A DNA stretch of 64,000 nt from a bacterium. GTDB taxonomy: Bacteria > Oederibacteriota > Muellerivitia > Muellerivitales > Muellerivitaceae. Every line of letters begins with the position of its first letter. Positions within the stretch are counted from its first letter, which is position 1. A program made the position numbers and the translations under genes. The notes below the pieces were generated by a model that was not told the DNA's origin, did no database searches, and was given only the letters and a program-made list of their open reading frames with translations. Location: contig DASZRK010000017.1 in the NCBI GenBank assembly GCA_035549195.1, forward strand, positions 384,177 through 448,176, in the 5' to 3' direction. Shown one piece after another: positions 12,894 to 27,923 of the stretch.

Positions 12894-13463
12894 ATGAAGA
12901 TCAAGACCCTGGTTTTGGCTTTAGGCTTGGCGACCCTGGCGGGGGCCGCGTCGGCGCAGAATTTCAATATCGGTTTGGAAGCGGGAGCCAATTTCGCGAA
13001 CCTGGTCGGAAGCGACCTGAGCATGGTCAGCAGTGCCAACGATTCCAAATTGGGGTTCGTGGGCGGCGGGTTCCTTTGCCTGAACTTCGGCCAATCCTTC
13101 GCCGTTCGTCCCGAGATCCTCTATGAACAAAAGGGGAATGCCATTTCAGGCACCAGCACCACCACCCAATTGGACTACATCGAGGTTCCGATCCTCGCCA
13201 AGCTCTCCCTGGGGACGCCGGTCCTGAACCCGGCTCTTCTTCTGGGCCCGGCGTTCAGCTGGAACATGTTGGCCAAGGACAACGGGGGCAACGACATCCC
13301 GAACCTCAACAGCTCGGACATCGGTCTTGTGGGCGGGGTCGAGTTGGACATCGATAAGTTCCTCGTGAGCGCCCGTTATGAACTGGGCCTCCAGAACGTG
13401 TCCCAGAACGTCAATGTGCAGAACGGGACCCTGACCTTCTTGGCGGGTTATTCCTTCATGTAA
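12894..13463 (+). CDS. outer-membrane beta-barrel protein (OmpA-like/OmpW-like porin family)
   Basis: Start is ATG at 12894 after GAGGGAGG. Signal peptide MKIKTLVLALGLATLAGAASA|Q, followed by alternating hydrophobic beta-strands and an aromatic C-terminus (LAGYSFM). Confidence 0.7.
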   Translation: MKIKTLVLALGLATLAGAASAQNFNIGLEAGANFANLVGSDLSMVSSANDSKLGFVGGGFLCLNFGQSFAVRPEILYEQKGNAISGTSTTTQLDYIEVPILAKLSLGTPVLNPALLLGPAFSWNMLAKDNGGNDIPNLNSSDIGLVGGVELDIDKFLVSARYELGLQNVSQNVNVQNGTLTFLAGYSFM

Positions 13464-13479
13464 GAAGGCGATCCAGAAA

Positions 13480-13508
13480 GGCCCGGGGATATCCCCCGGG
13501 CCTTTTTT
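13480..13508 (+). terminator. intrinsic terminator
   Basis: The stem GGCCCGGGG-atatc-CCCCGGGCC is followed by TTTTTTATTT. Confidence 0.8.
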
Positions 13509-13550
13509 ATTTCCAGATGTTGTGGGGGTGGCTGGGGACCTTCTAGGGCT

Positions 13551-13566
13551 TGTGAAAGATTTCACA
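13551..13566. promoter_or_regulatory. CRP/FNR-family-type palindromic operator, distal site
   Basis: TGTGAAAGATTTCACA is a perfect TGTGA-N6-TCACA palindrome. Confidence 0.55.
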
Positions 13567-13633
13567 TCTAAATTTGCCAAAAGGCCTTTTGGGGGTTTAG
13601 GAACCCCTTGAATGCCGGTGTAAAACCTGAGTT

Positions 13634-13649
13634 TGTGAAATATTTCACA
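13634..13649. promoter_or_regulatory. CRP/FNR-family-type palindromic operator, proximal site overlapping the -35 region of the nuo promoter
   Basis: TGTGAAATATTTCACA is a perfect TGTGA-N6-TCACA palindrome. It is centred about 35 bp upstream of a TATAAT hexamer. Confidence 0.55.
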
Positions 13650-13679
13650 TTGCGTTAAAGTCCCAAAAATACCTATAAT
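13650..13679 (+). promoter_or_regulatory. candidate sigma70-type promoter of the nuo operon
   Basis: TTGCGT at 13650-13655, an 18-nt spacer, then TATAAT at 13674-13679. This lies about 65 bp upstream of the nuoA start. Confidence 0.45.
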
Positions 13680-13742
13680 TCGGCCTATTCCGGCCTTTCG
13701 CCCCCGTCCTTCCCGCCGGTATTTCCCCTTCAAGAGGTCGGC

Positions 13743-14120
13743 ATGAGCTTCGACCAGATCGAGATCCTACTCCCCATCGCTTTGGGGCTGCTCCTGGCCT
13801 TGGCCGTGCCCGCCGCCATGTACCTCCTTTCGGCCCTCTTGGGCCCCCGCAAGGACAACGCCACCAAGCTTTCCTCGTATGAGTGTGGCATCCAAACGCC
13901 CGCCCTGTCGGGCGACGCGAGGCACCCTTTCCACGTGAAGTTCTACCTGGTGGCCATGTGCTTCCTGGTCTTTGACGTGGAGGTGGTGTTCCTTTTTCCC
14001 TGGGCGGTCCTGTTCCAGAAACTGGCCTGGGGCGGCTTCCTCACCATGCTGGCCTTCCTTTTCGTGCTGGCCTTTGGTTGGTTCTACCTGCTCAAGAGAG
14101 GAGCCTTGGAATGGGAGTAG
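13743..14120 (+). CDS. nuoA: NADH-quinone oxidoreductase subunit A
   Basis: The 125-aa, 3-TM protein carries YECG and FDVEVVFLFPWA motifs. Confidence 0.9.
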   Translation: MSFDQIEILLPIALGLLLALAVPAAMYLLSALLGPRKDNATKLSSYECGIQTPALSGDARHPFHVKFYLVAMCFLVFDVEVVFLFPWAVLFQKLAWGGFLTMLAFLFVLAFGWFYLLKRGALEWE

Positions 14121-14614
14121 AAACATTTCCCGCTTTCACCACCCGCCGTGACGCCGTGGTCGCCTGGGGGCAGAAGAACTCCCTTTGGCCCATGCCCTTC
14201 GGCACCGCCTGTTGCGCCATCGAGTTCATGGGCGTGGTGTCCTCGGTCTTCGACCTGGCCCGCTTCGGGGCCGAACTGGTCCGCTTCTCACCGCGCCAAT
14301 CGGACCTGCTCCTAGTGGCCGGGACCGTCACCTTCAAGCAGGCGCCTATCCTTAAGCAGATCTATGAGCAGATGTGCGAGCCCAAGTGGGTCATCTCCAT
14401 GGGGGTCTGCGCTTCGGCCGGCGGTTTCTATAACAACTACTGCACGGTCCAGGGCATCGATCAGATCATTCCCGTGGACGTCTATATCTCCGGTTGCCCC
14501 CCGCGCCCCGAGGCCATCCTGGACGCGGTGATGAAGCTCCAGCACAAGATCGAGAACCCCAAGACCACGCCGCCCGCACAGTTCCAAGCGAAAGAACCGC
14601 ATTTCAATTATTAA
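14111..14614 (+). CDS. nuoB: NADH-quinone oxidoreductase subunit B
   Basis: CCAIEFM and GCPPRPEA N2-cluster motifs are present. The start is most likely the ATG at 14111, overlapping the nuoA stop; the ORF track gives 14078. Confidence 0.9.
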   Translation: MGVETFPAFTTRRDAVVAWGQKNSLWPMPFGTACCAIEFMGVVSSVFDLARFGAELVRFSPRQSDLLLVAGTVTFKQAPILKQIYEQMCEPKWVISMGVCASAGGFYNNYCTVQGIDQIIPVDVYISGCPPRPEAILDAVMKLQHKIENPKTTPPAQFQAKEPHFNY

Positions 14615-14619
14615 AGGCA

Positions 14620-14655
14620 TTCGAACCACAGAGGGCACAGAGATCACAGAGCAAG
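14620..14655 (+). repeat. intergenic anchor plus triple tandem 9-mer repeat (copy 1, nuoB-nuoC spacer)
   Basis: TTCGAACCAC is followed by CCACAGAGG, GCACAGAGA and TCACAGAGC. Confidence 0.7.
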
Positions 14656-14662
14656 GCAAAAC

Positions 14663-15202
14663 GTGGAACAAACCGAGATCTTGAAAAAAATCGAAGAGAA
14701 GCATTCGGGGGCCGTCAAGGCTTCAACGGATCGCTACGGGGTTTTAGAGGTATTGATCGATCGAAAGGCCATCGCGGACGTGGTGAAGACCCTGCGCGAT
14801 AAAAAGGACCTGGCCTTCGACATGCTTATCGACCTAGTCTCCATCGATTACTCTCTAATGCCTGAGCGTACCGGGGACCGCTTTGGGGTGGCTTACATCC
14901 TGAAATCCCTGACCCACGGGCACCGTTTCCAATTGAAGGTGACCGCTCCCGAGGATGACGCGGTCGTTCCCTCGATCAGCGGCCTCTATAAGAACGCCGA
15001 TTGGCTGGAACGGGAAGCCTTCGACCAGATGGGCATCCGTTTTTCCGGCCACCCGAACCTCAAGCGGCTCTTGAACCACCATGAGTTCGTGGGGCATCCG
15101 CTTCGCAAGGACTATCCCATCACGCGGCGGCAATGGCTGTCGGCCAACGAATCCCTGATGGACGAGATGGACGTGCGGTTAAAAGAAAAGGGCTACGAAT
15201 AA
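14663..15202 (+). CDS. nuoC: NADH-quinone oxidoreductase subunit C (30-kDa subunit)
   Basis: GTG start. Sequence fits the Complex I 30-kDa subunit. It is not fused to nuoD. Confidence 0.88.
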   Translation: MEQTEILKKIEEKHSGAVKASTDRYGVLEVLIDRKAIADVVKTLRDKKDLAFDMLIDLVSIDYSLMPERTGDRFGVAYILKSLTHGHRFQLKVTAPEDDAVVPSISGLYKNADWLEREAFDQMGIRFSGHPNLKRLLNHHEFVGHPLRKDYPITRRQWLSANESLMDEMDVRLKEKGYE

Positions 15203-15208
15203 GCGGGA

Positions 15209-15241
15209 ATCGAACCACGAAGACACGAAGGGCATAAAGAA
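15209..15241 (+). repeat. intergenic anchor plus tandem 9-mer repeat (copy 2, degenerate, nuoC-nuoD spacer)
   Basis: ATCGAACCAC is followed by CCACGAAGA, CACGAAGGG and CATAAAGAA. Confidence 0.6.
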
Positions 15242-15245
15242 TAGC

Positions 15246-16493
15246 ATGAGCGACTTGGACACAAAAACCTTGCTTCCCAAAACACCGGAAAGCTCCGCCG
15301 GTTTGGAGTCGTCCGAAGGGAAGCGCAAGAAGGACCTGGTCTATGTGAACCTGGGCCCCAGCCACCCGGCCACCCACGGCACTTTGCGGGCCCTCTGCGC
15401 GTTGGACGGCGAAACCATCGTGGCGGCGGTCACCGAAATGGGCTACCTGCACCGGGGTTTCGAGAAGGACTGCGAGGTCCATACCTACCAGCAGGTCATT
15501 CCCTATACCGACCGGCTCAATTACGTGTCGGCCATCATGAACAACGTGGGCTATTGCAAGGCCATGGAGAAGATGCTGGACATCACTATCCCCGAGCGGG
15601 CCATGGCGGTGCGTCTCATCACCTGCGAGCTCAACCGCATCATCGACCACCTGGTCTGCGCGGGGGCGAACCTGGTGGACATCGGGGCCCTGACCAATTT
15701 CTGGTATTCCTTCAACGCCCGCGAGAAGGTCTATGACATCCTCGAGAAGCTCTGCGGGGCGCGGCTTACCTCCAGCTATCTTCGTATCGGCGGCCTGGCC
15801 CGTGACCTTTACCCCTCTTTCGCCGACGACGTGAAGGCCGTCCTCAAGGACATCCGCCACAACACAGGGGAGATCCAGAAGCTCATCGGGAAGAACCGCA
15901 TCTTCCTCGACCGCACGCAGGGCCTCTGCATTGTCCCGAAAGAAATGGCCATCGCTTATGGCTGGACGGGGCCGACGCTCCGGGCGAGCGGGGTCGAGTA
16001 CGACCTGCGCAAGGCCGAACCCTATTACCATTATGAGGACTACAAATTCGACGTGCCGGTGGGCACCACGGGCGATATCTACGACCGCATCTTCGTGCGA
16101 CTCTTGGAGATCGAGGAATCGGCCTCCATCATCGAACAGGCCTTGAAGAAGATCCCCAAGGGCCCCGTCATGACCGACGACAAGCGGGTGGCCCTGCCCC
16201 CGAAACAGCAGACCTACGGCAACATCGAAGGCTTGATGAACCACTTCAAGATCATCATGCACGGCATCCTGCCGCCCGCCGGCGAGGTCTATGACTTCAC
16301 CGAAGCGGCCAACGGGGAACTGGGCTTCTATATCGTTTCCGACGGCGGCAAGAATCCCTACCGGGTGAAGTGCCGACCGCCCTGCTTCATGAATTTCGCC
16401 GCCTTCCACGAGATGATCGAGGGACGGATGGTGGCCGACGCCGTGGCGAACCTGGGATCGATCAACATCATCGCCGGGGAATTGGATAGATAA
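15246..16493 (+). CDS. nuoD: NADH-quinone oxidoreductase subunit D (49-kDa subunit)
   Basis: NLGPSHPATHG and the C-terminal RxxxxxM motif are present in a 415-aa protein. Confidence 0.92.
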   Translation: MSDLDTKTLLPKTPESSAGLESSEGKRKKDLVYVNLGPSHPATHGTLRALCALDGETIVAAVTEMGYLHRGFEKDCEVHTYQQVIPYTDRLNYVSAIMNNVGYCKAMEKMLDITIPERAMAVRLITCELNRIIDHLVCAGANLVDIGALTNFWYSFNAREKVYDILEKLCGARLTSSYLRIGGLARDLYPSFADDVKAVLKDIRHNTGEIQKLIGKNRIFLDRTQGLCIVPKEMAIAYGWTGPTLRASGVEYDLRKAEPYYHYEDYKFDVPVGTTGDIYDRIFVRLLEIEESASIIEQALKKIPKGPVMTDDKRVALPPKQQTYGNIEGLMNHFKIIMHGILPPAGEVYDFTEAANGELGFYIVSDGGKNPYRVKCRPPCFMNFAAFHEMIEGRMVADAVANLGSINIIAGELDR

Positions 16494-16500
16494 AGGCTTT

Positions 16501-16595
16501 ATCGCGAAGATGCGAAGAGGGCGAAATAAGACGTAAGCCAAAGTAGGAATGGAAAATTAAATGATTTTCTTCGCGGACTTCGCTTCTTCGCGGTG
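16501..16595 (+). repeat. inverted pair of tandem GCGAAGA-type 9-mers (nuoD-nuoE spacer), potential about 95-nt hairpin
   Basis: The left arm is CGCGAAGAT GCGAAGAGG GCGAAATAA. The right arm, reverse-complemented, is CCGCGAAGA AGCGAAGTC CGCGAAGAA. Confidence 0.6.
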
Positions 16596-16610
16596 AAAAA
16601 AGAGGATCCG

Positions 16611-17090
16611 ATGCCGGTTCAATTCAAACCTGAGGTCAAACAAGAGTTCGAGGCGATCGCCGCGCGCTATCCCGTGCGCCGGGCCGCGCTTTTGCCCGCC
16701 CTTTGGCTCGCCCAGCGGGAATTCGGCTTCATCTCCACCGACGCCATGCGTGCGGTGGCGGACCTGGTGGGTTGCTCGCCCGCCCAAGTATTGGAAACGG
16801 CCAATTTCTACACCATGTACCAGAAACAGAAACCGGGCAAATACCACCTCCAGGTCTGCCAGACCATCTCCTGCCTCCTGGCTGGGTCCGAGGAGATCAA
16901 GAAGACCATCGAGACGAAGCTTTCCCTGAAGGACGGGGAGACCACCCAGGACGGGCAGTTCAGCTATCAGAGGGTCGAATGCCTGGCCTCCTGCCACACC
17001 GGGCCCTGCATGCGGGTGAACGACGAATACCACGAGAACCTGACGCCGGAAAAGACCGAAAAGCTCATCGATGAACTGAGGAAGAAATAA
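16611..17090 (+). CDS. nuoE: NADH-quinone oxidoreductase subunit E (24-kDa, 2Fe-2S)
   Basis: Start is ATG at 16611 after AGAGGA; the ORF track gives 16593. Cys residues at CQTISC ... CLASC match the thioredoxin-like [2Fe-2S] fold. Confidence 0.88.
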   Translation: MPVQFKPEVKQEFEAIAARYPVRRAALLPALWLAQREFGFISTDAMRAVADLVGCSPAQVLETANFYTMYQKQKPGKYHLQVCQTISCLLAGSEEIKKTIETKLSLKDGETTQDGQFSYQRVECLASCHTGPCMRVNDEYHENLTPEKTEKLIDELRKK

Positions 17091-17092
17091 CC

Positions 17093-18370
17093 ATGGCCGA
17101 TTTCCAGCCCCAATTGACCAAGCGTTTCAATGTGAAGGACGGCCATACCCTCAAGGGCTACCTGGCCACGGGCGGCTACGCGTCCCTGAAGAACCTTTTC
17201 GCCAAAAAGCCCGCCGAGATCATCGAAGAAGTGAAGGCGTCAGGCCTTAAAGGTAGGGGCGGGGCCGGGTTCCCGGCTGGGATGAAGTGGTCCTTCGTGC
17301 CCCAGAACACGGGAAAGCCCATCTATCTGGCGGTCAACGCCGACGAAGGGGAGCCCGGGACCTTTTCCGACCGTTACATGATGTATTACGACCCGCATCT
17401 CCTCCTGGAGGGGATTCTCTGTGCCTGTTACGCCATCAACAGCCACACGGCTTACATATATGTAAGGGGTGAGTTCTACGAACAGATCCAACGCCTGAAC
17501 GCGGCCATCGACGAGGCCAAGCAAGCGGGTTACCTGGGCAAGAACATCCAAGGTTCCGGGTTCGACCTGGAGATCTACGTTCATCGCGGCGCGGGGGCCT
17601 ACATCTGCGGCGAGGAAACGGGGCTCTTGGAATCCCTCGAGGGAAAGCCCGGCAAACCCCGCATCAAACCGCCCTTCCCGGCGGTGGTGGGGCTCTTCGG
17701 TTGCCCGACCATCATCAACAACGTGAAGACCCTCTCGTCGGTCCCCTGGATCGTCGAGAACGGCGCGGCGGCCTATGCGGCCATCGGCACCAAGGAATCC
17801 ACCGGCACCCACGTCTTCGGTCTCTCGGGCCATGTGAACCAAACCGGCTACTGGGAAATGCCCTTCGGGTTGCCCATGATGGATTTCATCAACAACTACG
17901 GTAAGGGCGTGAAGGGAAAGCTCAAGGCCGTCATCCCCGGCGGGTCCTCCTGCCCGGTCCTCACCGCCGAGGAATGCCAGGACCTGACCCTGACCTATGA
18001 GAGCATGCGGGACCACAAGACGATGTTCGGCACCGGGTGCGCCATCATCATGAACGATACGGTCGATATGACGAAAGTGCTGAAGAACCTGACCCACTTC
18101 TACTCCCACGAGTCCTGCGGGCAATGCACGCCCTGCCGGGAAGGGACCGCTTGGGAGGACCGCCTGATGCGGAAGATCCTGGACGGGGAAGCCACCACCA
18201 AGGAACTGGAACTGATGCTGGAGATCGCGGACAACATGGAAGGGAAGACCATCTGCGTCCTCTCGGCGGCCCTCGCCATGCCGGTGCGTAGCTTCCTCAA
18301 GAAATTCCGCGGCGATTTCGAGAAGTACTGCAAACCCGCTTCCGTGTCCGTGCCCGAGGCGGTGTCCTGA
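17093..18370 (+). CDS. nuoF: NADH-quinone oxidoreductase subunit F (51-kDa, FMN/NADH-binding)
   Basis: GLKGRGGAGFPAGMKW (FMN site), GEETGLLESLEGK, and the ESCGQCTPCREG 4Fe-4S motif are present. Confidence 0.93.
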   Translation: MADFQPQLTKRFNVKDGHTLKGYLATGGYASLKNLFAKKPAEIIEEVKASGLKGRGGAGFPAGMKWSFVPQNTGKPIYLAVNADEGEPGTFSDRYMMYYDPHLLLEGILCACYAINSHTAYIYVRGEFYEQIQRLNAAIDEAKQAGYLGKNIQGSGFDLEIYVHRGAGAYICGEETGLLESLEGKPGKPRIKPPFPAVVGLFGCPTIINNVKTLSSVPWIVENGAAAYAAIGTKESTGTHVFGLSGHVNQTGYWEMPFGLPMMDFINNYGKGVKGKLKAVIPGGSSCPVLTAEECQDLTLTYESMRDHKTMFGTGCAIIMNDTVDMTKVLKNLTHFYSHESCGQCTPCREGTAWEDRLMRKILDGEATTKELELMLEIADNMEGKTICVLSAALAMPVRSFLKKFRGDFEKYCKPASVSVPEAVS

Positions 18371-19998
18371 TGCCCAAGATCACCATCGACGGCAAACAAC
18401 TCGAGGTCAAGGACGGCACCAACGTCCTGCAGGCGGTGCTCGATAATGACATGAAGCTGGAGCATTTCTGTTATCACCCTTACCTGCCGGTGGCGGGCAA
18501 CTGCCGTACCTGCATGGTGGAGATCGAGGGGCCCAAGGGCCCCATGCTGACGGTGGGCTGCAACACCAAGGTGGCCGAGGGCATGGTTGTCCATACGCTT
18601 TCCCCCAAGGCCAAGCAGGCCCAGAAGAGCGCCATCGAGATGCTCCTGCTGGACCATCCCCTGGATTGCCCGGTCTGCGACAAGGCGGGGGAGTGCAAGC
18701 TCCAGAACCAATACATGGAATACGGCCTCTACGACTTCCGCCGGGGCGTACCCCGCTATTTCAAGGGCGGCAAGGCCGAGGACATCGGCGAACACATCAT
18801 CCTGGACCAGGAACGCTGCGTGCTTTGCACCCGCTGTATCCGTTTCGTGGACGAGGTCCCCAAGACCTCCGAGCTCGGCATCGTGAACCGCGGCCATGAA
18901 TCCAAGCTCGACATCTTCCCGGGCGTGAGATTGGACAACGCCTATTCCGGCAACGTGACCGACGTTTGCCCCGTGGGGGCCCTGACCTTGAAGGAGTTCC
19001 GCTTCAAGCAACGGGTCTGGTTCCTGAAGAAAACCGAATCCGTCTGCCATTCCTGCGCGCGGGGCTGCAACATCACGGTCGAGCACAACAAGGGCCGCAT
19101 CTACCGTTTCATGCCGCGCGAGAACGCCGAACTCAACAAGACCTGGATCTGCGACGAGGGCCGTTTCTCCTTCGACTATTACCAGAAGAACCGGCAGGAA
19201 GAGGTACGCCTGGGCCATTCCACCGCGAACTTGAACGAGGGCATCGCCCAGTTGGCCCATATCCTGGAAGGCCTGAACAAGGACGAGGTGGCGGGGATCG
19301 CCTCCCCCTTCGCGGCCTTGGAAGACCTCTATATGATGAAGAAACTCTTTGAGAAGCGCTTCAACCCCAAGAACCTCGCCGCCCCCTTCTGGGGCAAGAA
19401 GGGCGAGGGCGATAACATCCTGAAATTGGCCGATAAAACCCCCAATTCCCAGGGTTTGGCCTTGCTTGGCATAGACCCTGAGGGAGCCGACCTGCTTTCC
19501 CGCATCGAGAAGGGCGAGATCAAGGTCGTGATCATGATGCACAACAATCCCTTCGGACAGGACGAGGCCCGGGCGAACCAGGTCTATGGAAAGGTGAAGG
19601 CCCTGATCGTGTTGACGGTCCACAAAACCAAGGTGGCCGAGAAGGGGTCCATGGTGTTCCCCATGCGCACCTTCATCGAGAAGAACGGGACCTTCGTGAA
19701 CGCCACCAGCCGCTTGCAACGGGTCCGGCAGGCCATCGAACCGGAGAACGCGGACATCATCGAGGCTTCCCTCTGGATGGCCAAGCTGGCGAAGGCCCTG
19801 AAGGTGGAAGGGTTCGATTATCCGGACACCGCCTCGATCTTCAATGCCATGGCCAAGGAAGTGGAGTTGCTCAAGGGGCTGACCTTCAACGGCATCCCCG
19901 CAACGGGCAAAGTACTGGACCTAAAACCCATGGCGGCCGAGCCCTTCCAGGGCGTCAAGGCCCAGCCGAACGTGTGCGGGAAGGTGGTCCTTGGATAA
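18370..19998 (+). CDS. nuoG: NADH-quinone oxidoreductase subunit G (75-kDa), short 542-aa form
   Basis: An N-terminal 2Fe-2S ferredoxin fold (CYHPYLPVAGNCRTCMVEIEG), an HPLDCPVCDKAGECKLQ 4Fe-4S motif, and CVLCTRCIRF are present. Confidence 0.9.
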   Translation: MPKITIDGKQLEVKDGTNVLQAVLDNDMKLEHFCYHPYLPVAGNCRTCMVEIEGPKGPMLTVGCNTKVAEGMVVHTLSPKAKQAQKSAIEMLLLDHPLDCPVCDKAGECKLQNQYMEYGLYDFRRGVPRYFKGGKAEDIGEHIILDQERCVLCTRCIRFVDEVPKTSELGIVNRGHESKLDIFPGVRLDNAYSGNVTDVCPVGALTLKEFRFKQRVWFLKKTESVCHSCARGCNITVEHNKGRIYRFMPRENAELNKTWICDEGRFSFDYYQKNRQEEVRLGHSTANLNEGIAQLAHILEGLNKDEVAGIASPFAALEDLYMMKKLFEKRFNPKNLAAPFWGKKGEGDNILKLADKTPNSQGLALLGIDPEGADLLSRIEKGEIKVVIMMHNNPFGQDEARANQVYGKVKALIVLTVHKTKVAEKGSMVFPMRTFIEKNGTFVNATSRLQRVRQAIEPENADIIEASLWMAKLAKALKVEGFDYPDTASIFNAMAKEVELLKGLTFNGIPATGKVLDLKPMAAEPFQGVKAQPNVCGKVVLG

Positions 19999-21295
19999 CC
20001 AGACCTTCACCCTCATCAATATCGCGGTGATGACCGTGGTCGCTTGGCTCATCCCCCTTCAATTCATCCCGGTCTTCATCTGGCTGGAACGAAAGGGAAG
20101 CGCCATCATTCAGGACCGCATCGGGCCCAACCGCGCGAACATCCTGGGGATCCGCCTTTTCGGCATGATCCACAACTTCGCCGACGTGGTGAAGCTCTTG
20201 ATGAAAGAGAACATCGTGCCCGCCGGCGTGAACAGGCTCTACTTCTTCATGGCGCCTTTCTGGTCCATGACCATGAGCCTGCTGCCGCTGCTGGTGGTGC
20301 CCCTGGCGGCCCCCATGACCTTCAACGGCCGGCCGGTGCAGTTCGAGGCGGCGGACCTGAACGTAGGCGTTCTTTTCGTGCTTTCCATCACCAGCATGGG
20401 GGTCTTCGGCATCATCCTGGCGGGTTGGTCCTCCAATAATAAATTCTCGCTGATGGGCGGGCTTCGTTCCTCGGCCCAGATGATCTCCTATGAACTTTCG
20501 ATGGGGCTCGCCATGGTCGGACTCTTGATGGTCTATCAGGACGTGCGCTTGGGTTCGATCGTGGAGACCCAGGGGCATTCCCTCGCCGCCTGGGGCGCGA
20601 CCTTGCCCATCCCCAACTGGGGGATCTTCCTACAACCGGTCGGTTTTCTCCTCTTCTTGGTAGCCTCCTTCGCCGAAACGAACCGCAATCCTTTTGACCT
20701 GGCGGAAGGGGAATCGGAGCTGGTGGCGGGTTACCATGTGGAATATTCCAGCGTGAAATTCGCCCTCTTCTTCATGGCCGAATACTGCAACATGGTGGTG
20801 GCGGCCTTCGTGATCGCCACGCTCTTTCTGGGCGGCTACCAAGTGCCCTTCGCCTCCACCGAGACCCTGCGCCAGGACCCGCACTTGACCTTGGGGCTTC
20901 TTTGCGGGACCGTGGCCCTGCTCAAAGGGACCGCCGGGTATCTCCTCTATAAGAGGGCGGAGCAACAAAAGCATCTCTACCAGGGCGTCCAAAGGGCCGA
21001 ACCCTTCATTCTGGCGGCGCTGGGTTTCCTGGCGGCGGTGGCGGCTTTGGGTTTCTGGATCTGGGGCGCGGGCCAGGACCTTTCACCCGACTTTACGGGC
21101 ATCCTGGTGGCCCTTTTGCAGCTCTTAAGCCTCACCCTGAAGGTCCTCTTCTTTTGCTGGCTTTTCGTGTGGGTGCGCTGGACCTTGCCCCGGTTCCGTT
21201 ATGACCAATTGATGAACTTGGGTTGGAAGGTGATGTTGCCCCTGGCTTTGCTGAACCTGTTGGTGACGGGCGTGATCGTACTGACGCAAAAGTAA
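19991..21295 (+). CDS. nuoH: NADH-quinone oxidoreductase subunit H
   Basis: TTG start overlaps the nuoG stop. The WLERKGSAIIQDRIGPNRA motif is present in a polytopic membrane protein. Confidence 0.9.
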   Translation: MDNQTFTLINIAVMTVVAWLIPLQFIPVFIWLERKGSAIIQDRIGPNRANILGIRLFGMIHNFADVVKLLMKENIVPAGVNRLYFFMAPFWSMTMSLLPLLVVPLAAPMTFNGRPVQFEAADLNVGVLFVLSITSMGVFGIILAGWSSNNKFSLMGGLRSSAQMISYELSMGLAMVGLLMVYQDVRLGSIVETQGHSLAAWGATLPIPNWGIFLQPVGFLLFLVASFAETNRNPFDLAEGESELVAGYHVEYSSVKFALFFMAEYCNMVVAAFVIATLFLGGYQVPFASTETLRQDPHLTLGLLCGTVALLKGTAGYLLYKRAEQQKHLYQGVQRAEPFILAALGFLAAVAALGFWIWGAGQDLSPDFTGILVALLQLLSLTLKVLFFCWLFVWVRWTLPRFRYDQLMNLGWKVMLPLALLNLLVTGVIVLTQK

Positions 21296-21390
21296 AAGGC
21301 CTGAAGCTTTATTAAAACTGAGGTTGCTTCGTCATTGACGACCGCCTATTCGGCGGTCATTCCTCGCAATGACGGCAAAAAGGTGAGCCG

Positions 21391-21936
21391 ATGAAGGTTG
21401 TTCCTAGGCCCGGGATGAAGGGCGCCGAAAAGATCTATGTGGTGGAAGTGGTCAAGGGCCTTTGGCTCACGCTGGGCCATGTCCTGCACAATCTCCTCCA
21501 ACCAAAGGACATGCCGGTGGTGTCCTTCCCGGAGGAAAAGAAGGACCTGCCCCCGACCACCCGGGGCCGGCACCGGCTCATGAAGCGCGAGGACGGCGAA
21601 CCCCGTTGCACCGCCTGCATGCTTTGCGCCACCGCCTGTCCGGCCGAGTGCATCCATATCCTGGCGGAAGAGTCGCCGGACCCGAACATCGAGAAGTTCC
21701 CGGCGAAGTTCGACATCGACATGCTGCGCTGTGTCTATTGCGGCTATTGTGTGGAGGCCTGCCCCCTGGACGCCATCCGCATGGACATCCCCGAGGTGAC
21801 CGTGGCGGGCTACACCCGCGACAGCCTGGTGTACCACAAGGAATTCCTGATGGATCACGATAATAAGGACGTGGTGGCGGACTATAATCCGCCCCGTCCC
21901 GTCCAGTGGACCCACGGGCCGCACGCGAGGCCCTGA
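21391..21936 (+). CDS. nuoI: NADH-quinone oxidoreductase subunit I (2x[4Fe-4S])
   Basis: CTACMLCATACP and CVYCGYCVEACP ferredoxin motifs are present. Confidence 0.9.
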   Translation: MKVVPRPGMKGAEKIYVVEVVKGLWLTLGHVLHNLLQPKDMPVVSFPEEKKDLPPTTRGRHRLMKREDGEPRCTACMLCATACPAECIHILAEESPDPNIEKFPAKFDIDMLRCVYCGYCVEACPLDAIRMDIPEVTVAGYTRDSLVYHKEFLMDHDNKDVVADYNPPRPVQWTHGPHARP

Positions 21937-22076
21937 GAAACAAAGTCCTGGCCGCAAATCAGCGCGAATGAGCGCTGATGAAGGCAAGGAATGGATTAAA
22001 GGCTTAAAGACTTAGGATTTATTTGCGAAGATCTGCGCTCATTTGCGGCAAAAGACTTTGCTTTAAGGTGGATCGG

Positions 22077-22580
22077 GTGATCGAAAGCGTTCTTTTTTAT
22101 TTCCTGGCCGCGGTGTTGGTCGGGACGGCCCTATTGGTCGTCACCCGGACCAACCCGATCGCTTCCGCCATCGCCATGGTGGCGGCCTTCGCGGCCTTGT
22201 CGGGGCTCTACGCCATGCTGTCGGCGTCCCTGGCCGCCATCCTGCAGGTGCTGGTCTATGCGGGCGGCATCATGGTGCTGGTCATTTTCGTCATCATGCT
22301 CTTGAACCTGCGCAAGGAGGAATTGGAGCCCATGAAGGCGCGGGCCGGGAGTTTCCTGGCGGCCTTGGCCGCCCTTTTGGTCCTGGTGGTGGGGCCCATT
22401 TGGATGGGCTTGGCACCCTCTTGGAAACCCATGATGGCGTCCCTGGAACCCGGTTTTGGGAGCATCTCGGCCGTGGGGGCCAAGCTTTTCAGCGAATATC
22501 TTTTCCCCTTTGAGATGCTTTCCTTCGTGCTTTTGACCGCCATCGTCGGTGCCCTAGTGCTCTCGAAAAGGAAGTTGTGA
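22077..22580 (+). CDS. nuoJ: NADH-quinone oxidoreductase subunit J
   Basis: The start is likely GTG at 22077 (VIESVLFYFLAAV...), preceded by AAGGTGG; the ORF track starts at 22023. The protein has a hydrophobic NuoJ-like profile. Confidence 0.8.
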   Translation: MIESVLFYFLAAVLVGTALLVVTRTNPIASAIAMVAAFAALSGLYAMLSASLAAILQVLVYAGGIMVLVIFVIMLLNLRKEELEPMKARAGSFLAALAALLVLVVGPIWMGLAPSWKPMMASLEPGFGSISAVGAKLFSEYLFPFEMLSFVLLTAIVGALVLSKRKL

Positions 22581-22897
22581 CCATGGACCTATCACCCATC
22601 ACTCCGGCCCACTACCTGGCGCTCTCGGCGGTCCTTTTCGCCATCGGGGCCGCCGGGGTGCTGGCCCGCAAGAACCTCTTCATCGTCCTCATGAGCCTGG
22701 AGCTCATGCTGAACGCCGCGAACCTGGCACTGGTGACCTTTTCCCGTGTCCACGGGGACATGACGGGGCATCTTTTCGTGCTGTTCGTGGTGGCGATCGC
22801 CGCCGCCGAGGCCTGCGTGGGCTTGGCCATCGTCATCGCCCTCTACCGCCTGAAAGAATCGGTCGATCTGGACATCTTCAAGAGCTTGAAGGGATAG
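22577..22897 (+). CDS. nuoK: NADH-quinone oxidoreductase subunit K
   Basis: The 106-aa, 3-TM protein carries LFAIGAAGVLARKNLFIVLMSLELMLNAANL. It overlaps the nuoJ stop. Confidence 0.9.
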   Translation: MTMDLSPITPAHYLALSAVLFAIGAAGVLARKNLFIVLMSLELMLNAANLALVTFSRVHGDMTGHLFVLFVVAIAAAEACVGLAIVIALYRLKESVDLDIFKSLKG

Positions 22898-22900
22898 GCC

Positions 22901-24880
22901 ATGGGCATCGAGACCATCCAAGCCGTGAACCTGATCCAATACGATTGGATCTGGCTCATCTTCGCCGCGCCTCTTTTCGGAGGGGTGCTGAACGGCCTGT
23001 TGGTGCTCGTCGCCGCGCGCCGGGGCCGCCCCTTTCCGGAAGCCCTTTACGCCACCCTGTCCTGCGGTTCGGCCATCCTTTCCTTTTGCTTCGCCTGGAC
23101 CGCCTACCTCCACTTCAAGGACGGCGGACCGGGCACCATCCTGGCCCAGAACCTGGGGACCTGGATCGAATCGACCGACTTCCAAGTCTTCTTGAAGTTC
23201 CACCTGGACGCCCTCTCCATCACCATGACGGTCTTCATCACCCTGGTCTCCAGCCTCATCCACCTCTATTCCATCGGATACATGAAAGGGGACGCGGGTT
23301 TCGGCCGGTTCTTCACCTACATGAACCTGTTCCTTTTCTCCATGCTGGTGTTGGTCACGGCCCAGAACCTGATCCTGATGTTCCTGGGCTGGGAAGGGGT
23401 CGGGTTCTGTTCCTATCTATTGATCGGCTTCTGGTTCGAGGACATGGCCAAGGCCGACGCGGGCAAGAAGGCGATCATCTACAACCGCATCGGGGACGCC
23501 GGGTTCCTGCTGGGCATCCTGCTGCTCTTCACCCTGACCGGGACCGTGAATTTCGCCGACCTTCAGATGGGCAAGCACAGCATCAACGAGCTTTCGGCCA
23601 CCCTCATCTGCCTCTGCTTCTTCTTCGGGGCGACCGGCAAGTCGGCCCAGATCCCCCTTTATGTTTGGCTGCCCGATGCCATGGCGGGCCCCACGCCGGT
23701 CTCCGCCCTCATCCACGCGGCCACCATGGTGACCGCCGGGATCTACCTGGTGGCCCGCCTGAGCTTCCTCTTCGTGCTGGCGCCCTGGGCCTCCACGGTG
23801 GTGGCCGTCATCGGCGTCCTGACCGCCCTTTTGGCGGCCACCCTGGCGGTGGTCCAGCAGGACATCAAGAAGGTCCTGGCCTATTCCACCATCTCCCAGT
23901 TGGGCTATATGTTCCTGGGCGCGGGGGTCAGCGCCTACGGTGCCGGGGTCTTCCACCTCATCACCCATGGGTTCTTCAAGGCCTGCCTCTTCCTGGGGGC
24001 CGGGTCCGTCATCCACGCCCTCGGCGGGGAACAGGACATCCGCAAGATGGGGGGGCTCTTGAAACACGTGCCCCTGACCAGCGTGGGATTCCTCCTGGGC
24101 TGGATGGCCATCTCGGGGATCGTGCCTTTCTGCGGTGGGTTCAACAGCAAGGACGCCATCCTGTGGAACGCCCTGGCCGTTCCTAACTCCGTGTTGCCCT
24201 TCCTACCCCAGGTGCTCTACGGCATCGGGCTCCTGACGGCTTTCCTGACCTCCTTCTATATGACCCGCCTGGTGGTGCTGGTCTTCTTCGGGAACTATCG
24301 GGGGGACAAGAAGATCTTCGACCATGTCCATGAATCGCCCCGGATCATGACGGTGCCTCTCCTCATCCTGGGGGCCGGGTCGCTGGTGTCGGGCTGGATC
24401 GGCATGCCGCAGGCCATCGGAGGCGGTGACAGCCTGGGACAGTTCCTTGAGCCCATCTTCCATCTTTCCACGGTGGAACCGACCAGCCTCCCCAAGAGCA
24501 TGGAGCCCCTCTTCATGATCGTTTCCTGGGCGGTGGCCGTCGGCGGCGTCCTTTTCGCCTGGTTCGTCTATGGCTTGAAGCACAAGATCAGCCCGATCCT
24601 CTTGAAGCTGATCCCCGGCGGGGCCCAGACCCTGGAGAAGAAATACTACGTGGACGAGATCTACGAGGCTTCGGCGGTCAAAGGCGTGAAAGCCCTGGCG
24701 AGCTGGGTCTCGGACCGTTTGGTGGAGACCATCCTGGTCAACGGCCTGGTGCAGGCCCTGACCGGTGCCGCCGCCGGTCTCGCACGCTGGGTCCAGAGAT
24801 CCCAGACCGGGTTGGTCCGCGCTTACCTGGCCTATGTGGCCCTGGGCGCCGCCTTGCTGATCTATTGGATGACGCATTAA
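22901..24880 (+). CDS. nuoL: NADH-quinone oxidoreductase subunit L
   Basis: The 659-aa antiporter-like subunit carries LLIGFWFEDMAKADAGKKA and TPVSALIHAATMVTAGIYL motifs. Confidence 0.92.
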   Translation: MGIETIQAVNLIQYDWIWLIFAAPLFGGVLNGLLVLVAARRGRPFPEALYATLSCGSAILSFCFAWTAYLHFKDGGPGTILAQNLGTWIESTDFQVFLKFHLDALSITMTVFITLVSSLIHLYSIGYMKGDAGFGRFFTYMNLFLFSMLVLVTAQNLILMFLGWEGVGFCSYLLIGFWFEDMAKADAGKKAIIYNRIGDAGFLLGILLLFTLTGTVNFADLQMGKHSINELSATLICLCFFFGATGKSAQIPLYVWLPDAMAGPTPVSALIHAATMVTAGIYLVARLSFLFVLAPWASTVVAVIGVLTALLAATLAVVQQDIKKVLAYSTISQLGYMFLGAGVSAYGAGVFHLITHGFFKACLFLGAGSVIHALGGEQDIRKMGGLLKHVPLTSVGFLLGWMAISGIVPFCGGFNSKDAILWNALAVPNSVLPFLPQVLYGIGLLTAFLTSFYMTRLVVLVFFGNYRGDKKIFDHVHESPRIMTVPLLILGAGSLVSGWIGMPQAIGGGDSLGQFLEPIFHLSTVEPTSLPKSMEPLFMIVSWAVAVGGVLFAWFVYGLKHKISPILLKLIPGGAQTLEKKYYVDEIYEASAVKGVKALASWVSDRLVETILVNGLVQALTGAAAGLARWVQRSQTGLVRAYLAYVALGAALLIYWMTH

Positions 24881-24920
24881 CGAAGGCCCGGGAGATTCCC
24901 GGCTTTAGAAAGGCTTTGCT

Positions 24921-26447
24921 TTGATCCTCTCCATCCTCATCGCGCTACCCCTGGTGGGCGCCGGTCTTGCCGCCCTTTTCCCCCAGGAAAGGGCCTCGAA
25001 GGCCTTGGCCTTCCTGGCCTCCTTCACGACCTTCGTGTTCTCCCTTTCCCTGGTCCAGGGCTTCAACCCGGCGGATGGCGGGTTCCAATTCGAGGAGCAG
25101 AAGGACCTGCTCCCTTCCCTGGGGATCCATTACAGCCTGGGGATGGACGGCCTGTCCCTCTGGCTCATCCTCCTGACCACCTTCCTGACCCCCTGGGTGC
25201 TTTTGGCCAGCTGGGGTTGGATCCGCATCAACCTGCGGGGTTACCTGGCCTCGGTCCTGGTGCTGGAGTCGGCCATGATCGGGACCCTGGCTTCCACCGA
25301 CCTTTTCCTCTTCTATCTCTTCTGGGAGCTCATGCTGGTGCCGGTCTTCTTCCTCATGGGGATCTGGGGCGGGCCGAACCGGGGCCGGGCGACCCTGAAG
25401 TTCGTCCTTTTCACCATGCTGGGATCCCTCCTGATGCTGGTGGCCCTGATCTACGCCACCCACGAAGCCCATAGCTTCGATTACACCAAGCTTTTCGAAC
25501 ACACCTTCCCCGAGGACGTCCAGTTCTGGTGCTTCCTGGCCTTCTCGATGGCTTTCCTGATCAAGGTCCCGCTTTTCCCGTTCCACGCCTGGCTACCCGA
25601 CGCCTATACCGAGGCCCCGGCGGGCGCCACCGCCCTTCTCTCGGGGGTCATGGTCAAGCTGGGGGTCTATGGTTTGCTCCGCTTCTGCATCCCGCTCTTC
25701 CCGGTCGCGGCCAGGGATTTCGCGCCCTGGATCATGGTGCTGGCCCTGGCCGGGGTGCTCCATGGGGCTCTCATGGCGGTCCTGCAGACCGACTTCAAGC
25801 GCATGGCCGCTTACTCCTCCCTTTCCCACATGGGTCTGGTCCTGCTCGGGGTTTTCACCTATTCGCTGATGGGCCTACAGGGCGGGCTCATCGAGATGAT
25901 CGGCCATGGAGTGGCCATGACCGCCTTCTTCCTTTTGATCGGGGCCCTCTGGACCCGCCGCGAAAGCCATGAGGCCGAGGAGTTCGGGGGCCTGGCCAAG
26001 GTGGCGCCCTTCCTGGCCTTCACCTTCCTTTGGACCCTCCTGTCGGTGGCGGGCCTACCGGCCTTCGCCGGGTTCCCCGGGGAAGTGCTGATCCTCCTTT
26101 CGACCTATAAAGCCTGGCCCCTCTTGGCCGTGCTGGCCATCGGCGGGTTCGTGCTGACCGCCTGGTTCCTCTTCCATTTCTATGGACGGGTCTTCCTGGG
26201 CCCCCTGTCCAAGAAGCCGAACCAGAAGGTCTCCGACCTTTCCTGGAGCGAGATCCTGGCCCTCCTGCCCCTTTGCCTGGCCGCCCTTTGGGTGGGGCTG
26301 AATCCCAATCTCTTCATCGCCCCGGCAGAGAAGACCCTGCAGATGAAGGTCATCGAAAAGCTCAAGCCTCCCCCGCGGATGACCGATTTCGCCGCCGAAC
26401 AGCGCCACCGGCAGGAAACATTGGAAAAAGAGAAGAACAAAAAGTGA
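24921..26447 (+). CDS. nuoM: NADH-quinone oxidoreductase subunit M
   Basis: The 508-aa antiporter-like subunit carries the WLPDAYTEAPAGATALLSGVMVKLGVYG motif. Confidence 0.92.
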   Translation: MILSILIALPLVGAGLAALFPQERASKALAFLASFTTFVFSLSLVQGFNPADGGFQFEEQKDLLPSLGIHYSLGMDGLSLWLILLTTFLTPWVLLASWGWIRINLRGYLASVLVLESAMIGTLASTDLFLFYLFWELMLVPVFFLMGIWGGPNRGRATLKFVLFTMLGSLLMLVALIYATHEAHSFDYTKLFEHTFPEDVQFWCFLAFSMAFLIKVPLFPFHAWLPDAYTEAPAGATALLSGVMVKLGVYGLLRFCIPLFPVAARDFAPWIMVLALAGVLHGALMAVLQTDFKRMAAYSSLSHMGLVLLGVFTYSLMGLQGGLIEMIGHGVAMTAFFLLIGALWTRRESHEAEEFGGLAKVAPFLAFTFLWTLLSVAGLPAFAGFPGEVLILLSTYKAWPLLAVLAIGGFVLTAWFLFHFYGRVFLGPLSKKPNQKVSDLSWSEILALLPLCLAALWVGLNPNLFIAPAEKTLQMKVIEKLKPPPRMTDFAAEQRHRQETLEKEKNKK

Positions 26448-26458
26448 CCGAGGCCTGA

Positions 26459-27883: not shown

Positions 27884-27923
27884 TCCATGGGTCTAGGTAT
27901 GGACGGTGTTTTTAAAGGGTCCT

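What the first reader, a model, noticed from the sequence alone, without database searches (positions are those of the whole stretch)
13551..13679. Two perfect TGTGA-N6-TCACA (CRP-type) palindromes upstream of the complex I promoter
TGTGAAAGATTTCACA at 13551-13566 and TGTGAAATATTTCACA at 13634-13649 match the CRP half-site consensus exactly and lie 83 bp apart centre to centre. The proximal site overlaps the -35 region of a TTGCGT-18-TATAAT promoter about 65 bp before nuoA, which is class II-like positioning. The distal site sits at class I-like spacing. Two exact 16-bp palindromes in a 280-bp high-GC intergenic region are very unlikely by chance. This implies that the whole 14-gene nuo operon is under a cAMP-CRP or other CRP/FNR-family redox or carbon signal in this organism.
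Basis: partly seen in the sequence, partly recalled or inferred. Interest (0 to 1): 0.6.

Follow-up and report, generated by a model that had tools for sequence, protein, structure and literature searches.

The report
Paired Rex-type operators at nuo promoter
The two palindromes are real and strongly conserved regulator-binding sites in front of the complex I operon of an uncultured bacterium, but they match the operator of the NADH-sensing repressor Rex rather than a CRP activator site, which makes this a familiar redox feedback circuit in a new phylum.

Summary
Observation confirmed. TGTGAAAGATTTCACA (13551-66) and TGTGAAATATTTCACA (13634-49) are the only TGTGA-N6-TCACA matches in 64 kb (0 expected) and lie 83 bp apart upstream of a 14-gene nuoA-N operon. 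The window is from a MAG of candidate phylum FCPU426.

In 18 related genomes both sites recur as TTGTGAAAt.TTTCACA, with 16 of 18 positions invariant, 82-83 bp apart. The DNA between them is only 45% identical. The proximal site abuts a conserved TTGnnn-17/18-TATAAT promoter.

The 18-mers match the Rex operator TTGTGAA-N4-TTCACAA at 13 of 14 specified positions, against 13-14 of 22 for the E. coli CRP consensus. Rex directly represses nuo in Streptomyces.

In 120 metagenome contigs carrying the same 17-mer, a rex gene lies directly downstream in 3, complex-I-type genes flank it in 24, and no CRP/FNR gene appears. The geometry (centres about -44.5 and -127.5, near-consensus promoter) does not fit CRP class II or class I. 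One relative keeps the promoter but has lost both sites.

Best reading: NADH/NAD+-responsive repression of complex I by Rex through two phased operators. Not shown: a rex gene in this genome (none in the ~78 kb examined).

This is a known kind of system in a new phylum. The rigid dual-operator spacing is the only unusual feature.

The parts
13475..13512 (+). Intrinsic terminator of the upstream outer-membrane beta-barrel gene. It insulates the nuo promoter from read-through.
   Evidence: RNA fold -27.3 kcal/mol, z -4.07, 14-bp stem followed by a U run. The hairpin plus T run is conserved in most relatives. The upstream gene carries PF13505 OMP_b-brl.
13550..13567 (.). Distal operator TTGTGAAAGATTTCACAT (Rex-box type), centre about -127.5
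   Evidence: One mismatch to TTGTGAANNNNTTCACAA. Present in 18 relatives with 16 of 18 positions invariant.
13568..13632 (.). Spacer between the operators: 65 bp, length-constrained but poorly conserved in sequence, with recurrent A-tracts
   Evidence: Operator spacing is 83 bp in 14 genomes and 82 bp in 4. Mean pairwise identity of the spacer is 45%. A-tracts recur at about +21, +41 and +64 from the distal centre in relatives.
13633..13650 (.). Proximal operator TTGTGAAATATTTCACAT (Rex-box type), spanning about -53 to -36; its last T is the first base of the -35 hexamer
   Evidence: One mismatch to the Rex consensus. The block AGTTTGTGAAATnTTTCACATTG is invariant across 17 aligned genomes.
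13650..13655 (+). -35 element TTGCGT (TTG invariant; TTGACC or TTGATT in most relatives)
   Evidence: Alignment and per-genome table.
13674..13679 (+). -10 element TATAAT, invariant; inferred TSS near 13686
   Evidence: Invariant in all 19 genomes, including L019; the -35/-10 spacer is 18 bp in 14 genomes and 17 bp in 4. The TSS is inferred, not mapped.
13686..13742 (+). Inferred 5' leader with a GAGG ribosome-binding site at 13734-37
   Evidence: Read from the sequence. No significant fold (z -0.36), no Rfam match, and leader length is variable in relatives.
13743..27883 (+). nuoA-N, the 14-gene NADH:quinone oxidoreductase (complex I) operon, including the NADH-oxidising module NuoEFG: the regulated target
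   Evidence: ORF map and Pfam families of the called genes.

Best explanation
The two palindromes are a pair of Rex-type operators (ROP sites) controlling the sigma-70-type promoter of the complex I operon in a bacterium of candidate phylum FCPU426.

Proposed mechanism. When the NADH/NAD+ ratio is low, a Rex dimer sits on the proximal operator (about -53 to -36). Experimentally measured Rex footprints run several bp past the 18-mer, so a bound dimer should cover the adjacent -35 hexamer and block RNA polymerase. A second dimer on the distal operator lies 82-83 bp upstream, about eight helical turns and therefore on the same face of the DNA. It probably stabilises repression cooperatively, perhaps through a small loop helped by A-tract curvature. 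When NADH accumulates, Rex releases the DNA and complex I is made, which oxidises the NADH. That closes a negative feedback loop.

Shown here: the sites, their extreme conservation, the fixed spacing, the promoter arrangement, the match to the Rex consensus, and the link between this exact motif and rex or NADH dehydrogenase genes in environmental DNA.

Inferred: that the binding protein is Rex, that it represses, the position of the TSS, and cooperativity or looping.
For: 1. Motif. Both sites are TTGTGAAAnnTTTCACAT, 13 of 14 specified positions of TTGTGAANNNNTTCACAA. That consensus is experimentally defined for Rex in S. aureus (TTGTGAAW4TTCACAA, PMC2883068) and S. avermitilis (PMC5355995), and generalised across phyla (Ravcheev 2012, as quoted in PMC5317091). 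L024's distal site is the perfect palindrome TTGTGAAATATTTCACAA.

2. Target precedent. Rex directly represses nuoA1-N1 in S. avermitilis via TTGTGACCTGCTTCACAT, a site encompassing the -35 (EMSA, ChIP, footprint -42 to -16).

3. Footprinting. In 18 FCPU426 relatives (NuoA 66-82% identical) both sites are kept with 16 of 18 positions invariant. The surrounding DNA is barely alignable (spacer identity 45%). Operator spacing is 82-83 bp while leader length ranges from 62 to 341 nt.

4. Independent association. A metagenome scan for the lineage's 17-mer gave 120 contigs. The unspecified 18th base is A in 109 of 142 matches, completing the palindrome. A bona fide rex gene (PF06971 + PF02629; 29-44% identical to the L105 Rex, T-Rex 44%) starts 25-80 bp downstream of the site in 3 contigs. 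Complex-I-type genes flank the site in 24 of 120 contigs, and in 23 of these the site is 55-720 bp upstream of the gene's 5' end. ATP synthase subunit a, multihaem cytochromes and lactate permease also recur.

5. Repressor-type architecture. The promoter has an invariant TATAAT and a TTG -35. L019 retains that promoter with both operators decayed.

6. The L105-type Rex belongs to Verrucomicrobiota, so Rex with this operator form exists outside Gram-positive bacteria.
Against: No rex gene was found. tblastn with T-Rex (validated against PDB 1xcb) and B. subtilis Rex found nothing in the 64-kb window, in ~14 kb of extra flank from the same contig, or in ~370 kb from relatives. That is about 2% of a genome, so it says little either way, but the defining component is unverified.

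TGTGA-N6-TCACA is also the core of many CRP/FNR-family sites, so the motif alone does not exclude that family. In S. aureus the CRP-family protein ArcR binds Rex-box-containing promoters in vitro.

No other site was found in ~430 kb of FCPU426 DNA, so no regulon could be defined within the phylum.

The TSS is unmapped. Rex is known only as a dimer, and looping between distant Rex sites has not been described.
Confidence: 0.77

Rival explanations
1. The sites are bound by a CRP/FNR-family regulator (cAMP-CRP, or a redox- or gas-sensing paralogue), which either activates nuo as the first reader proposed (proximal site class II-like, distal site class I-like) or represses it.
For: Both sites have perfect TGTGA-N6-TCACA cores. 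Many CRP/FNR-family proteins use this core (own knowledge: Vfr, Clp, GlxR, mycobacterial Crp, HcpR-type TTGTGA-N6-TCACAA). ArcR binds Rex-box promoters in vitro in S. aureus (PMC2883068). The proximal site is adjacent to the -35.
Against: AAA/TTT inside the half-sites is invariant in all 36 sites. That is a Rex-box feature and not part of the CRP consensus, which the sites match at only 13-14 of 22 positions. The site centres, about -44.5 and -127.5, miss the class II (-41.5) and class I (-61.5 to -92.5) positions. The promoter is near-consensus and persists without the sites in L019. No CRP/FNR homologue was found in 1.15 Mb of held DNA, including the 120 motif-bearing contigs, and the one marginal hit is a CoA ligase. 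By contrast, 3 rex genes sit directly behind the motif. In S. aureus, arcR deletion did not affect the Rex-box genes.
Confidence: 0.13
2. An unrelated, phylum-specific transcription factor recognises a palindrome that resembles the Rex box by convergence.
For: The phylum is uncultured and its regulators are unknown. No regulator gene was identified, and no other sites were found in 430 kb.
Against: The match to a 14-position consensus is nearly perfect at both sites and in 19 genomes. The target, an NADH dehydrogenase, is the canonical Rex target. The identical 17-mer is tied to rex and nuo in unrelated environmental bacteria.
Confidence: 0.08
3. The palindromes are not protein-binding sites. 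They could be RNA hairpins or terminators, or copies of a small repeat element (REP/MITE).
For: They are inverted repeats, and two copies occur close together.
Against: As RNA they fold weakly (-5.1 and -5.5 kcal/mol; z -1.55 and -1.95) and lie upstream of the inferred TSS. There is no Rfam match. Only two copies exist in 64 kb and none elsewhere in 430 kb of related DNA. Their position and spacing relative to the promoter are conserved in 19 genomes.
Confidence: 0.02

Closest known systems
Rex operator (ROP) at the nuoA1-N1 promoter of Streptomyces avermitilis / S. coelicolor
   Same: 18-bp inverted repeat of the TTGTGAA-N4-TTCACAA class (S. avermitilis nuoA1: TTGTGACCTGCTTCACAT, which also ends in CACAT). 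It sits at the -35 of the complex I operon promoter. Rex represses it and NADH relieves the repression (PMC5355995).
   Different: Streptomyces has a single site lying between -35 and -10 (footprint -42 to -16). Here there are two sites: the proximal one is just upstream of the -35 and shares one base with it, and the second is 83 bp further upstream. The central N4 is A/T-rich here (as in Firmicutes) rather than GC-rich. The organism is a diderm of an uncultured phylum, and Rex itself is not yet identified in it.
Staphylococcus aureus / Bacillus subtilis Rex box TTGTGAAW4TTCACAA
   Same: Same consensus, including the A/T-rich centre. The window's proximal site differs from it only at the last base (PMC2883068). 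The logic is also the same in B. subtilis, where Rex and the NADH dehydrogenase Ndh form a regulatory loop (title of Gyan 2006, cited; paper not held).
   Different: Targets in those species are mostly fermentation genes, cyd and ndh (type II NADH dehydrogenase), not a 14-subunit complex I.
E. coli cAMP-CRP class I / class II activator sites
   Same: TGTGA-N6-TCACA core, and a site close to the -35.
   Different: Flanks and inner positions differ (13-14 of 22 match to the CRP consensus). The centres (about -44.5 and -127.5) are off the class II and class I positions. The promoter is not activator-dependent in design, and there is no association with crp genes.
Dual-operator, loop-forming repressors (LacI O1/O3, GalR, DeoR, NagC) - own knowledge
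   Same: Two operators an integral number of helical turns apart, with the spacer conserved in length but not in sequence.
   Different: Those repressors are tetramers or are bridged by HU. Rex is known only as a dimer, and no looping has been reported. Two Rex sites in one promoter are known (S. mutans rex and adhE) but their significance is described as unclear (PMC3441419).

Membership tests
Rex operator (ROP) / Rex regulon | 18-bp inverted repeat matching TTGTGAA-N4-TTCACAA | tested here: met
   Both sites match 13 of 14 specified positions. All 36 sites in 18 genomes match. L024's distal site is a perfect match.
Rex operator (ROP) / Rex regulon | Site overlaps or abuts core promoter elements of the repressed gene | tested here: met
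   The proximal 18-mer ends on the first base of the conserved -35. The promoter is inferred from conservation; the TSS is not mapped.
Rex operator (ROP) / Rex regulon | Target gene belongs to NAD(H)-linked energy metabolism; nuo is an experimentally verified Rex target | tested here: met
   The target is nuoA-N with NuoEFG. Precedent in PMC5355995.
Rex operator (ROP) / Rex regulon | The same motif co-occurs with rex (autoregulation) and with other Rex-regulon genes | tested here: met
   Among metagenome contigs with the 17-mer, rex lies directly downstream in 3 of 120, nuo-type genes flank it in 24 of 120, and atpB, cytochromes and lactate permease also occur. This was shown in other organisms, not within FCPU426.
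Rex operator (ROP) / Rex regulon | A rex gene (PF06971 winged helix + PF02629 Rossmann domain) in the same genome | not testable with these tools
   None in the 64-kb window, ~14 kb of added flank, or ~370 kb from relatives. A Rex profile search lists only the best 120 of ~8000 candidates, and those with organism names are Verrucomicrobiota.
Rex operator (ROP) / Rex regulon | NADH-sensitive binding of Rex to the site | not testable with these tools
   Requires EMSA or footprinting with purified protein.
CRP (class I / class II) activator site | TGTGA-N6-TCACA core | tested here: met
   Exact match at both sites.
CRP (class I / class II) activator site | Match to the full 22-bp consensus AAATGTGATCTAGATCACATTT | tested here: not met
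   13 of 22 and 14 of 22. All mismatches fall outside the two pentamers, at positions that are invariant here as the Rex-type T...AAA/TTT.
CRP (class I / class II) activator site | Site centred at -41.5 (class II) or at -61.5, -71.5, -82.5 or -92.5 (class I) | tested here: not met
   Centres are about -44.5 (-43.5 in the genomes with a 17-bp -35/-10 spacer) and -127.5, relative to a TSS inferred 7 nt after TATAAT. The TSS is not mapped, so there is +/-1-2 nt of uncertainty.
CRP (class I / class II) activator site | Activator-dependent promoter (poor core elements; loss of the site abolishes the promoter) | tested here: not met
   TATAAT and the TTG of the -35 are invariant. L019 keeps TTGACC-18-TATAAT with both sites decayed.
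CRP (class I / class II) activator site | A CRP/FNR-family gene (PF00027 + HTH_Crp) in the genome | not testable with these tools
   None in any held DNA.

The most novel reading that the evidence does not exclude
The strictly conserved 82-83-bp (about eight-turn) phasing of the two operators, the unconstrained spacer sequence, and the recurrent A-tracts at about +21, +41 (the exact midpoint, in 16 of 18 genomes) and +64 together suggest a looped or otherwise cooperative repression complex bridging two Rex dimers. That architecture has not been described for Rex, which is known only as a dimer. Alternatively, the protein could be a new FCPU426-specific regulator that has taken over a Rex-type box.
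Probability: 0.2. Interest if true: 0.5.

Novelty: new member of a known kind. Interest (0 to 1): 0.3.

Why it matters
This gives a concrete, testable regulatory prediction for an uncultured, rare-biosphere phylum (FCPU426) with no known physiology. Its complex I would be switched on by a rising NADH/NAD+ ratio, which implies a lifestyle with fluctuating electron-acceptor supply.

It also illustrates a general trap. A perfect CRP core (TGTGA-N6-TCACA) is contained within the Rex box, so scans based on the core alone will misassign Rex sites to CRP.

The metagenome sample shows that the Rex-box-to-NADH-dehydrogenase link is widespread in environmental bacteria (20% of sampled occurrences).

The conserved two-operator geometry gives a simple experimental handle for testing whether Rex can act cooperatively at a distance.

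Tried and rejected
1. Looking for the regulator gene.
- tblastn with T-Rex, B. subtilis Rex, E. coli CRP and FNR found nothing in the window, in L001-L027, or in the two 10-kb flank extensions.
- A Rex-profile search of the 5.8-billion-protein collection lists only the best 120 hits. These are Verrucomicrobiota-type and an insertion-bearing type, with none traceable to FCPU426.
- Two long-contig hits (P0107, P0109) are syntenic with the Verrucomicrobiota-type L105 and not linked to FCPU426.

2. Defining a regulon within the phylum. A PWM scan of ~430 kb of FCPU426 DNA found no sites other than the nuo pairs. None of the 120 metagenome contigs reuses the operator/-35 fusion.

3. A second promoter downstream of the distal site. 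There is a -35-like TTGTCA/TTGCCA, but no conserved -10. Rejected.

4. RNA-level function. The hairpins are weak and there is no Rfam family. Rejected.

5. Repeat element. Only two copies exist. Rejected.

6. A marginal CRP-like tblastn hit next to a site in L031 turned out to be a CoA-ligase-type protein.

7. The built-in promoter/terminator scanner reported nothing in 13300-13900. Its thresholds miss the 3-of-6 -35, and it also missed the terminator that folding clearly shows.

8. Ravcheev 2012 and Gyan 2006 are not held and are cited only through papers that quote them.

Full report
OBSERVATION. They are the only TGTGA-N6-TCACA matches in the 64-kb window, and 100 dinucleotide-preserving shuffles produced none. 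They lie 83 bp apart, centre to centre, in the 279-bp gap between an outer-membrane beta-barrel gene and nuoA. That gap is 50% GC, against 61% for the window. Downstream is a contiguous 14-gene nuoA-N operon (13743-27883) that includes the NADH-oxidising NuoEFG module. TTGCGT-18-TATAAT is present as described, and TATAAT ends 63 bp before the ATG. The upstream gene ends in a strong intrinsic terminator (13475-13512; -27.3 kcal/mol, z -4.07), so the nuo promoter stands alone.

SOURCE ORGANISM. The window is part of a 591-kb contig of MAG GCA_964638935.1. Its NuoA has 20 relatives in the species-representative genome collection, mostly labelled candidate division FCPU426. This is an uncultured, rare-biosphere candidate phylum.

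PHYLOGENETIC FOOTPRINT. In 18 of the 20 relatives (NuoA 66-82% identical) both sites are present upstream of nuoA.
- Of the 18 positions, 16 are invariant in all 36 sites: TTGTGAAA-t-n-TTTCACA-n.
- In the alignment of the intergenic regions, the only conserved blocks are the distal 18-mer, the proximal block AGTTTGTGAAATnTTTCACATTG, an invariant TATAAT, and the terminator of the upstream gene.
- The TTG that ends the proximal block is the start of the -35 hexamer (TTGACC or TTGATT in most genomes). It is followed by a 17- or 18-bp spacer.
- Operator spacing is 83 bp in 14 genomes and 82 bp in 4. The 65 bp between the operators averages only 45% pairwise identity, and the leader from TATAAT to ATG ranges from 62 to 341 nt. 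The spacing is therefore selected, not merely inherited.
- L019 (NuoA 70% identical) is a natural experiment. It keeps the same upstream gene and the same promoter (CACATTGACC-18-TATAAT), but both operators have decayed.

WHICH REGULATOR. The extended motif matches TTGTGAA-N4-TTCACAA at 13 of 14 specified positions at both sites.
- This consensus is the experimentally defined Rex operator: TTGTGAAW4TTCACAA in S. aureus (PMC2883068), TTGTGAANNNNTTCACAA in S. avermitilis (PMC5355995), and generalised across phyla by Ravcheev et al. 2012, as quoted in PMC5317091 and PMC13077300.
- In S. avermitilis, Rex directly represses nuoA1-N1 through TTGTGACCTGCTTCACAT, a site that encompasses the -35 (EMSA, ChIP, DNase footprint -42 to -16).
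- The match to the 22-bp E. coli CRP consensus is 13-14 of 22. All mismatches fall at positions that are invariant here in the Rex-type form.
- The S. aureus work also records the same confusion. The CRP-family protein ArcR binds Rex-box promoters in vitro, but its deletion has no effect, and Rex is the real regulator.

INDEPENDENT ASSOCIATION TEST. I scanned the metagenome collection for the lineage's own 17-mer, TTGTGAAATNTTTCACA.
- The unspecified 18th base is A in 109 of 142 matches, completing the perfect Rex palindrome.
- tblastn with T-Rex (my recalled sequence, confirmed as PDB 1xcb at E 1.9e-137) and B. subtilis Rex found a rex gene starting 25-80 bp downstream of the motif in three contigs, L105, L037 and L048. 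These proteins align with T-Rex and B. subtilis Rex over the winged helix and the GxGxLG Rossmann motif and retrieve PF06971 + PF02629 proteins annotated as Rex. Named relatives of the L105 type are Verrucomicrobiota.
- tblastn with the window's 14 Nuo proteins found complex-I-type genes in 24 of the 120 contigs. In 23 of these the motif lies 55-720 bp upstream of the nearest such gene's 5' end.
- A Pfam survey of 178 ORFs flanking the motif adds ATP synthase subunit a (6), multihaem cytochromes c7/c3 (about 9), lactate permease and pyridine-nucleotide oxidoreductases. This resembles the experimentally defined Rex regulon (atp, nuo, cyd, rex, ndh).
- No CRP/FNR homologue occurs in these contigs or in any FCPU426 DNA held, 1.15 Mb in total. 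The one marginal hit is a CoA-ligase-type protein.

GEOMETRY AND MECHANISM. Taking the TSS as 7 nt after TATAAT (about 13686; inferred), the proximal 18-mer spans -53 to -36 (centre -44.5) and the distal one -136 to -119 (centre -127.5).
- These are not the CRP class II (-41.5) or class I (-61.5 to -92.5) positions (established knowledge). The promoter itself, with a perfect invariant -10 and a conserved TTG -35, is not built like an activator-dependent promoter. It also persists without the sites in L019.
- Measured Rex footprints are 23-29 nt for an 18-nt ROP. A dimer on the proximal site should therefore cover the -35.
[quoted passage not shown] Complex I then consumes the NADH, which is a negative feedback loop of the kind described for Rex and Ndh in B. 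subtilis (title cited).
- The distal operator is about eight helical turns away, on the same face of the DNA. A-tracts recur at about +21, +41 (the exact midpoint, in 16 of 18 genomes, though not in the window itself) and +64. This suggests curved DNA and cooperative or looped binding. That step is inference. Two Rex sites in one promoter are known, but their significance is described as unclear (PMC3441419).

WHAT IS NOT SHOWN. No rex gene was found in the window, in the extra ~14 kb of flank from the same contig, or in ~370 kb from relatives. The remainder of the MAG cannot be reached with these tools. No further sites occur in ~430 kb of FCPU426 DNA, so no regulon could be defined within the phylum. 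The TSS is unmapped. A CRP/FNR-family protein with Rex-like specificity, or an unknown factor, therefore cannot be excluded.

REJECTED ALTERNATIVES.
- RNA hairpins: -5.1 and -5.5 kcal/mol, z -1.55 and -1.95, and upstream of the TSS.
- A known RNA family: no Rfam hit anywhere in the window.
- A repeat element: only two copies.
- A second promoter after the distal site: no conserved -10.

VERDICT. Assigning them to CRP with class I / class II activation is not supported. The evidence points to a pair of Rex operators repressing complex I in response to NADH/NAD+ (confidence about 0.77). This is a well-known circuit found in a new, uncultured phylum, so it counts as a new member of a known kind. 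The strictly conserved 82-83-bp dual-operator geometry is the only unusual aspect. Interest is modest (0.3).

Noticed in passing
window 13475-13512: Strong intrinsic terminator (14-bp stem, -27.3 kcal/mol, z -4.07, U run) after the upstream OMP beta-barrel gene, conserved in most relatives. The built-in terminator scanner did not report it.
   Followed up: yes
window 13568-13632, and the equivalent spacer in L007-L024: A-tracts recur at about +21, +41 and +64 bp from the distal operator centre, roughly two helical turns apart. The +41 tract is at the exact midpoint and is present in 16 of 18 genomes, but not in the window itself. This may be intrinsic curvature that favours contact between the operators.
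   Followed up: partly
window 13575-13586 (TTTGCCAAAAGG); TTTGTCAAAAG in about 9 relatives: A half-site-like element (TTGTCAAA against the operator half TTGTGAAA) is conserved 8 bp downstream of the distal operator in the closer clade only. Rex is reported to touch isolated half-sites in S. avermitilis.
   Followed up: no
L019 9780-10000: This relative keeps the upstream OMP gene and the TTGACC-18-TATAAT promoter, but both operators have decayed; one 4-mismatch remnant remains at -182. It would be informative to know whether this lineage has also lost the regulator.
   Followed up: partly
L014 about 9790-10000; L024 about 9660-10000: The nuoA leader is 62-94 nt in most genomes but 213 nt in L014 and 341 nt in L024, so these carry insertions between the promoter and the start codon. 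Their content was not analysed.
   Followed up: no
window 13650, and the proximal sites of all relatives: In metagenomes the 18th operator base is A in 77% of matches. In FCPU426 proximal sites it is an invariant T, because that base doubles as the first T of the -35 TTG. The operator and promoter are encoded in overlap.
   Followed up: yes
L094 (7 sites in 2.6 kb), L030 (3 sites), L131 (3 sites within 90 bp), L068 (3 sites): Some metagenome contigs carry dense arrays of Rex-box-like palindromes. Their origin and function are unknown.
   Followed up: no
metagenome loci such as L118, with counts: The same motif recurs upstream of multihaem cytochrome c7/c3 genes, ATP synthase subunit a, and CarboxypepD_reg-domain proteins in high-GC soil contigs. 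This hints at large Rex regulons covering respiratory chains in uncultured diderm bacteria.
   Followed up: partly
L105, L152, L153: The Verrucomicrobiota-type rex is always divergently adjacent to a cluster of circularly permuted ATP-grasp, Alpha-E and transglutaminase genes, with the Rex box in the shared intergenic region of L105.
   Followed up: no
L007-L026 record titles: NCBI organism labels for these closely related MAGs are inconsistent (Proteobacteria, Candidatus Firestonebacteria, Leptospiraceae, uncultured bacterium, FCPU426), so name-based taxonomy is unreliable for this lineage.
   Followed up: no
window 27887-28718: Directly after nuoN there is an 89-codon ORF with the lowest GC3 in the window (0.62), followed by about 560 bp without a convincing ORF. 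There is no Rfam match. Not examined further.
   Followed up: no
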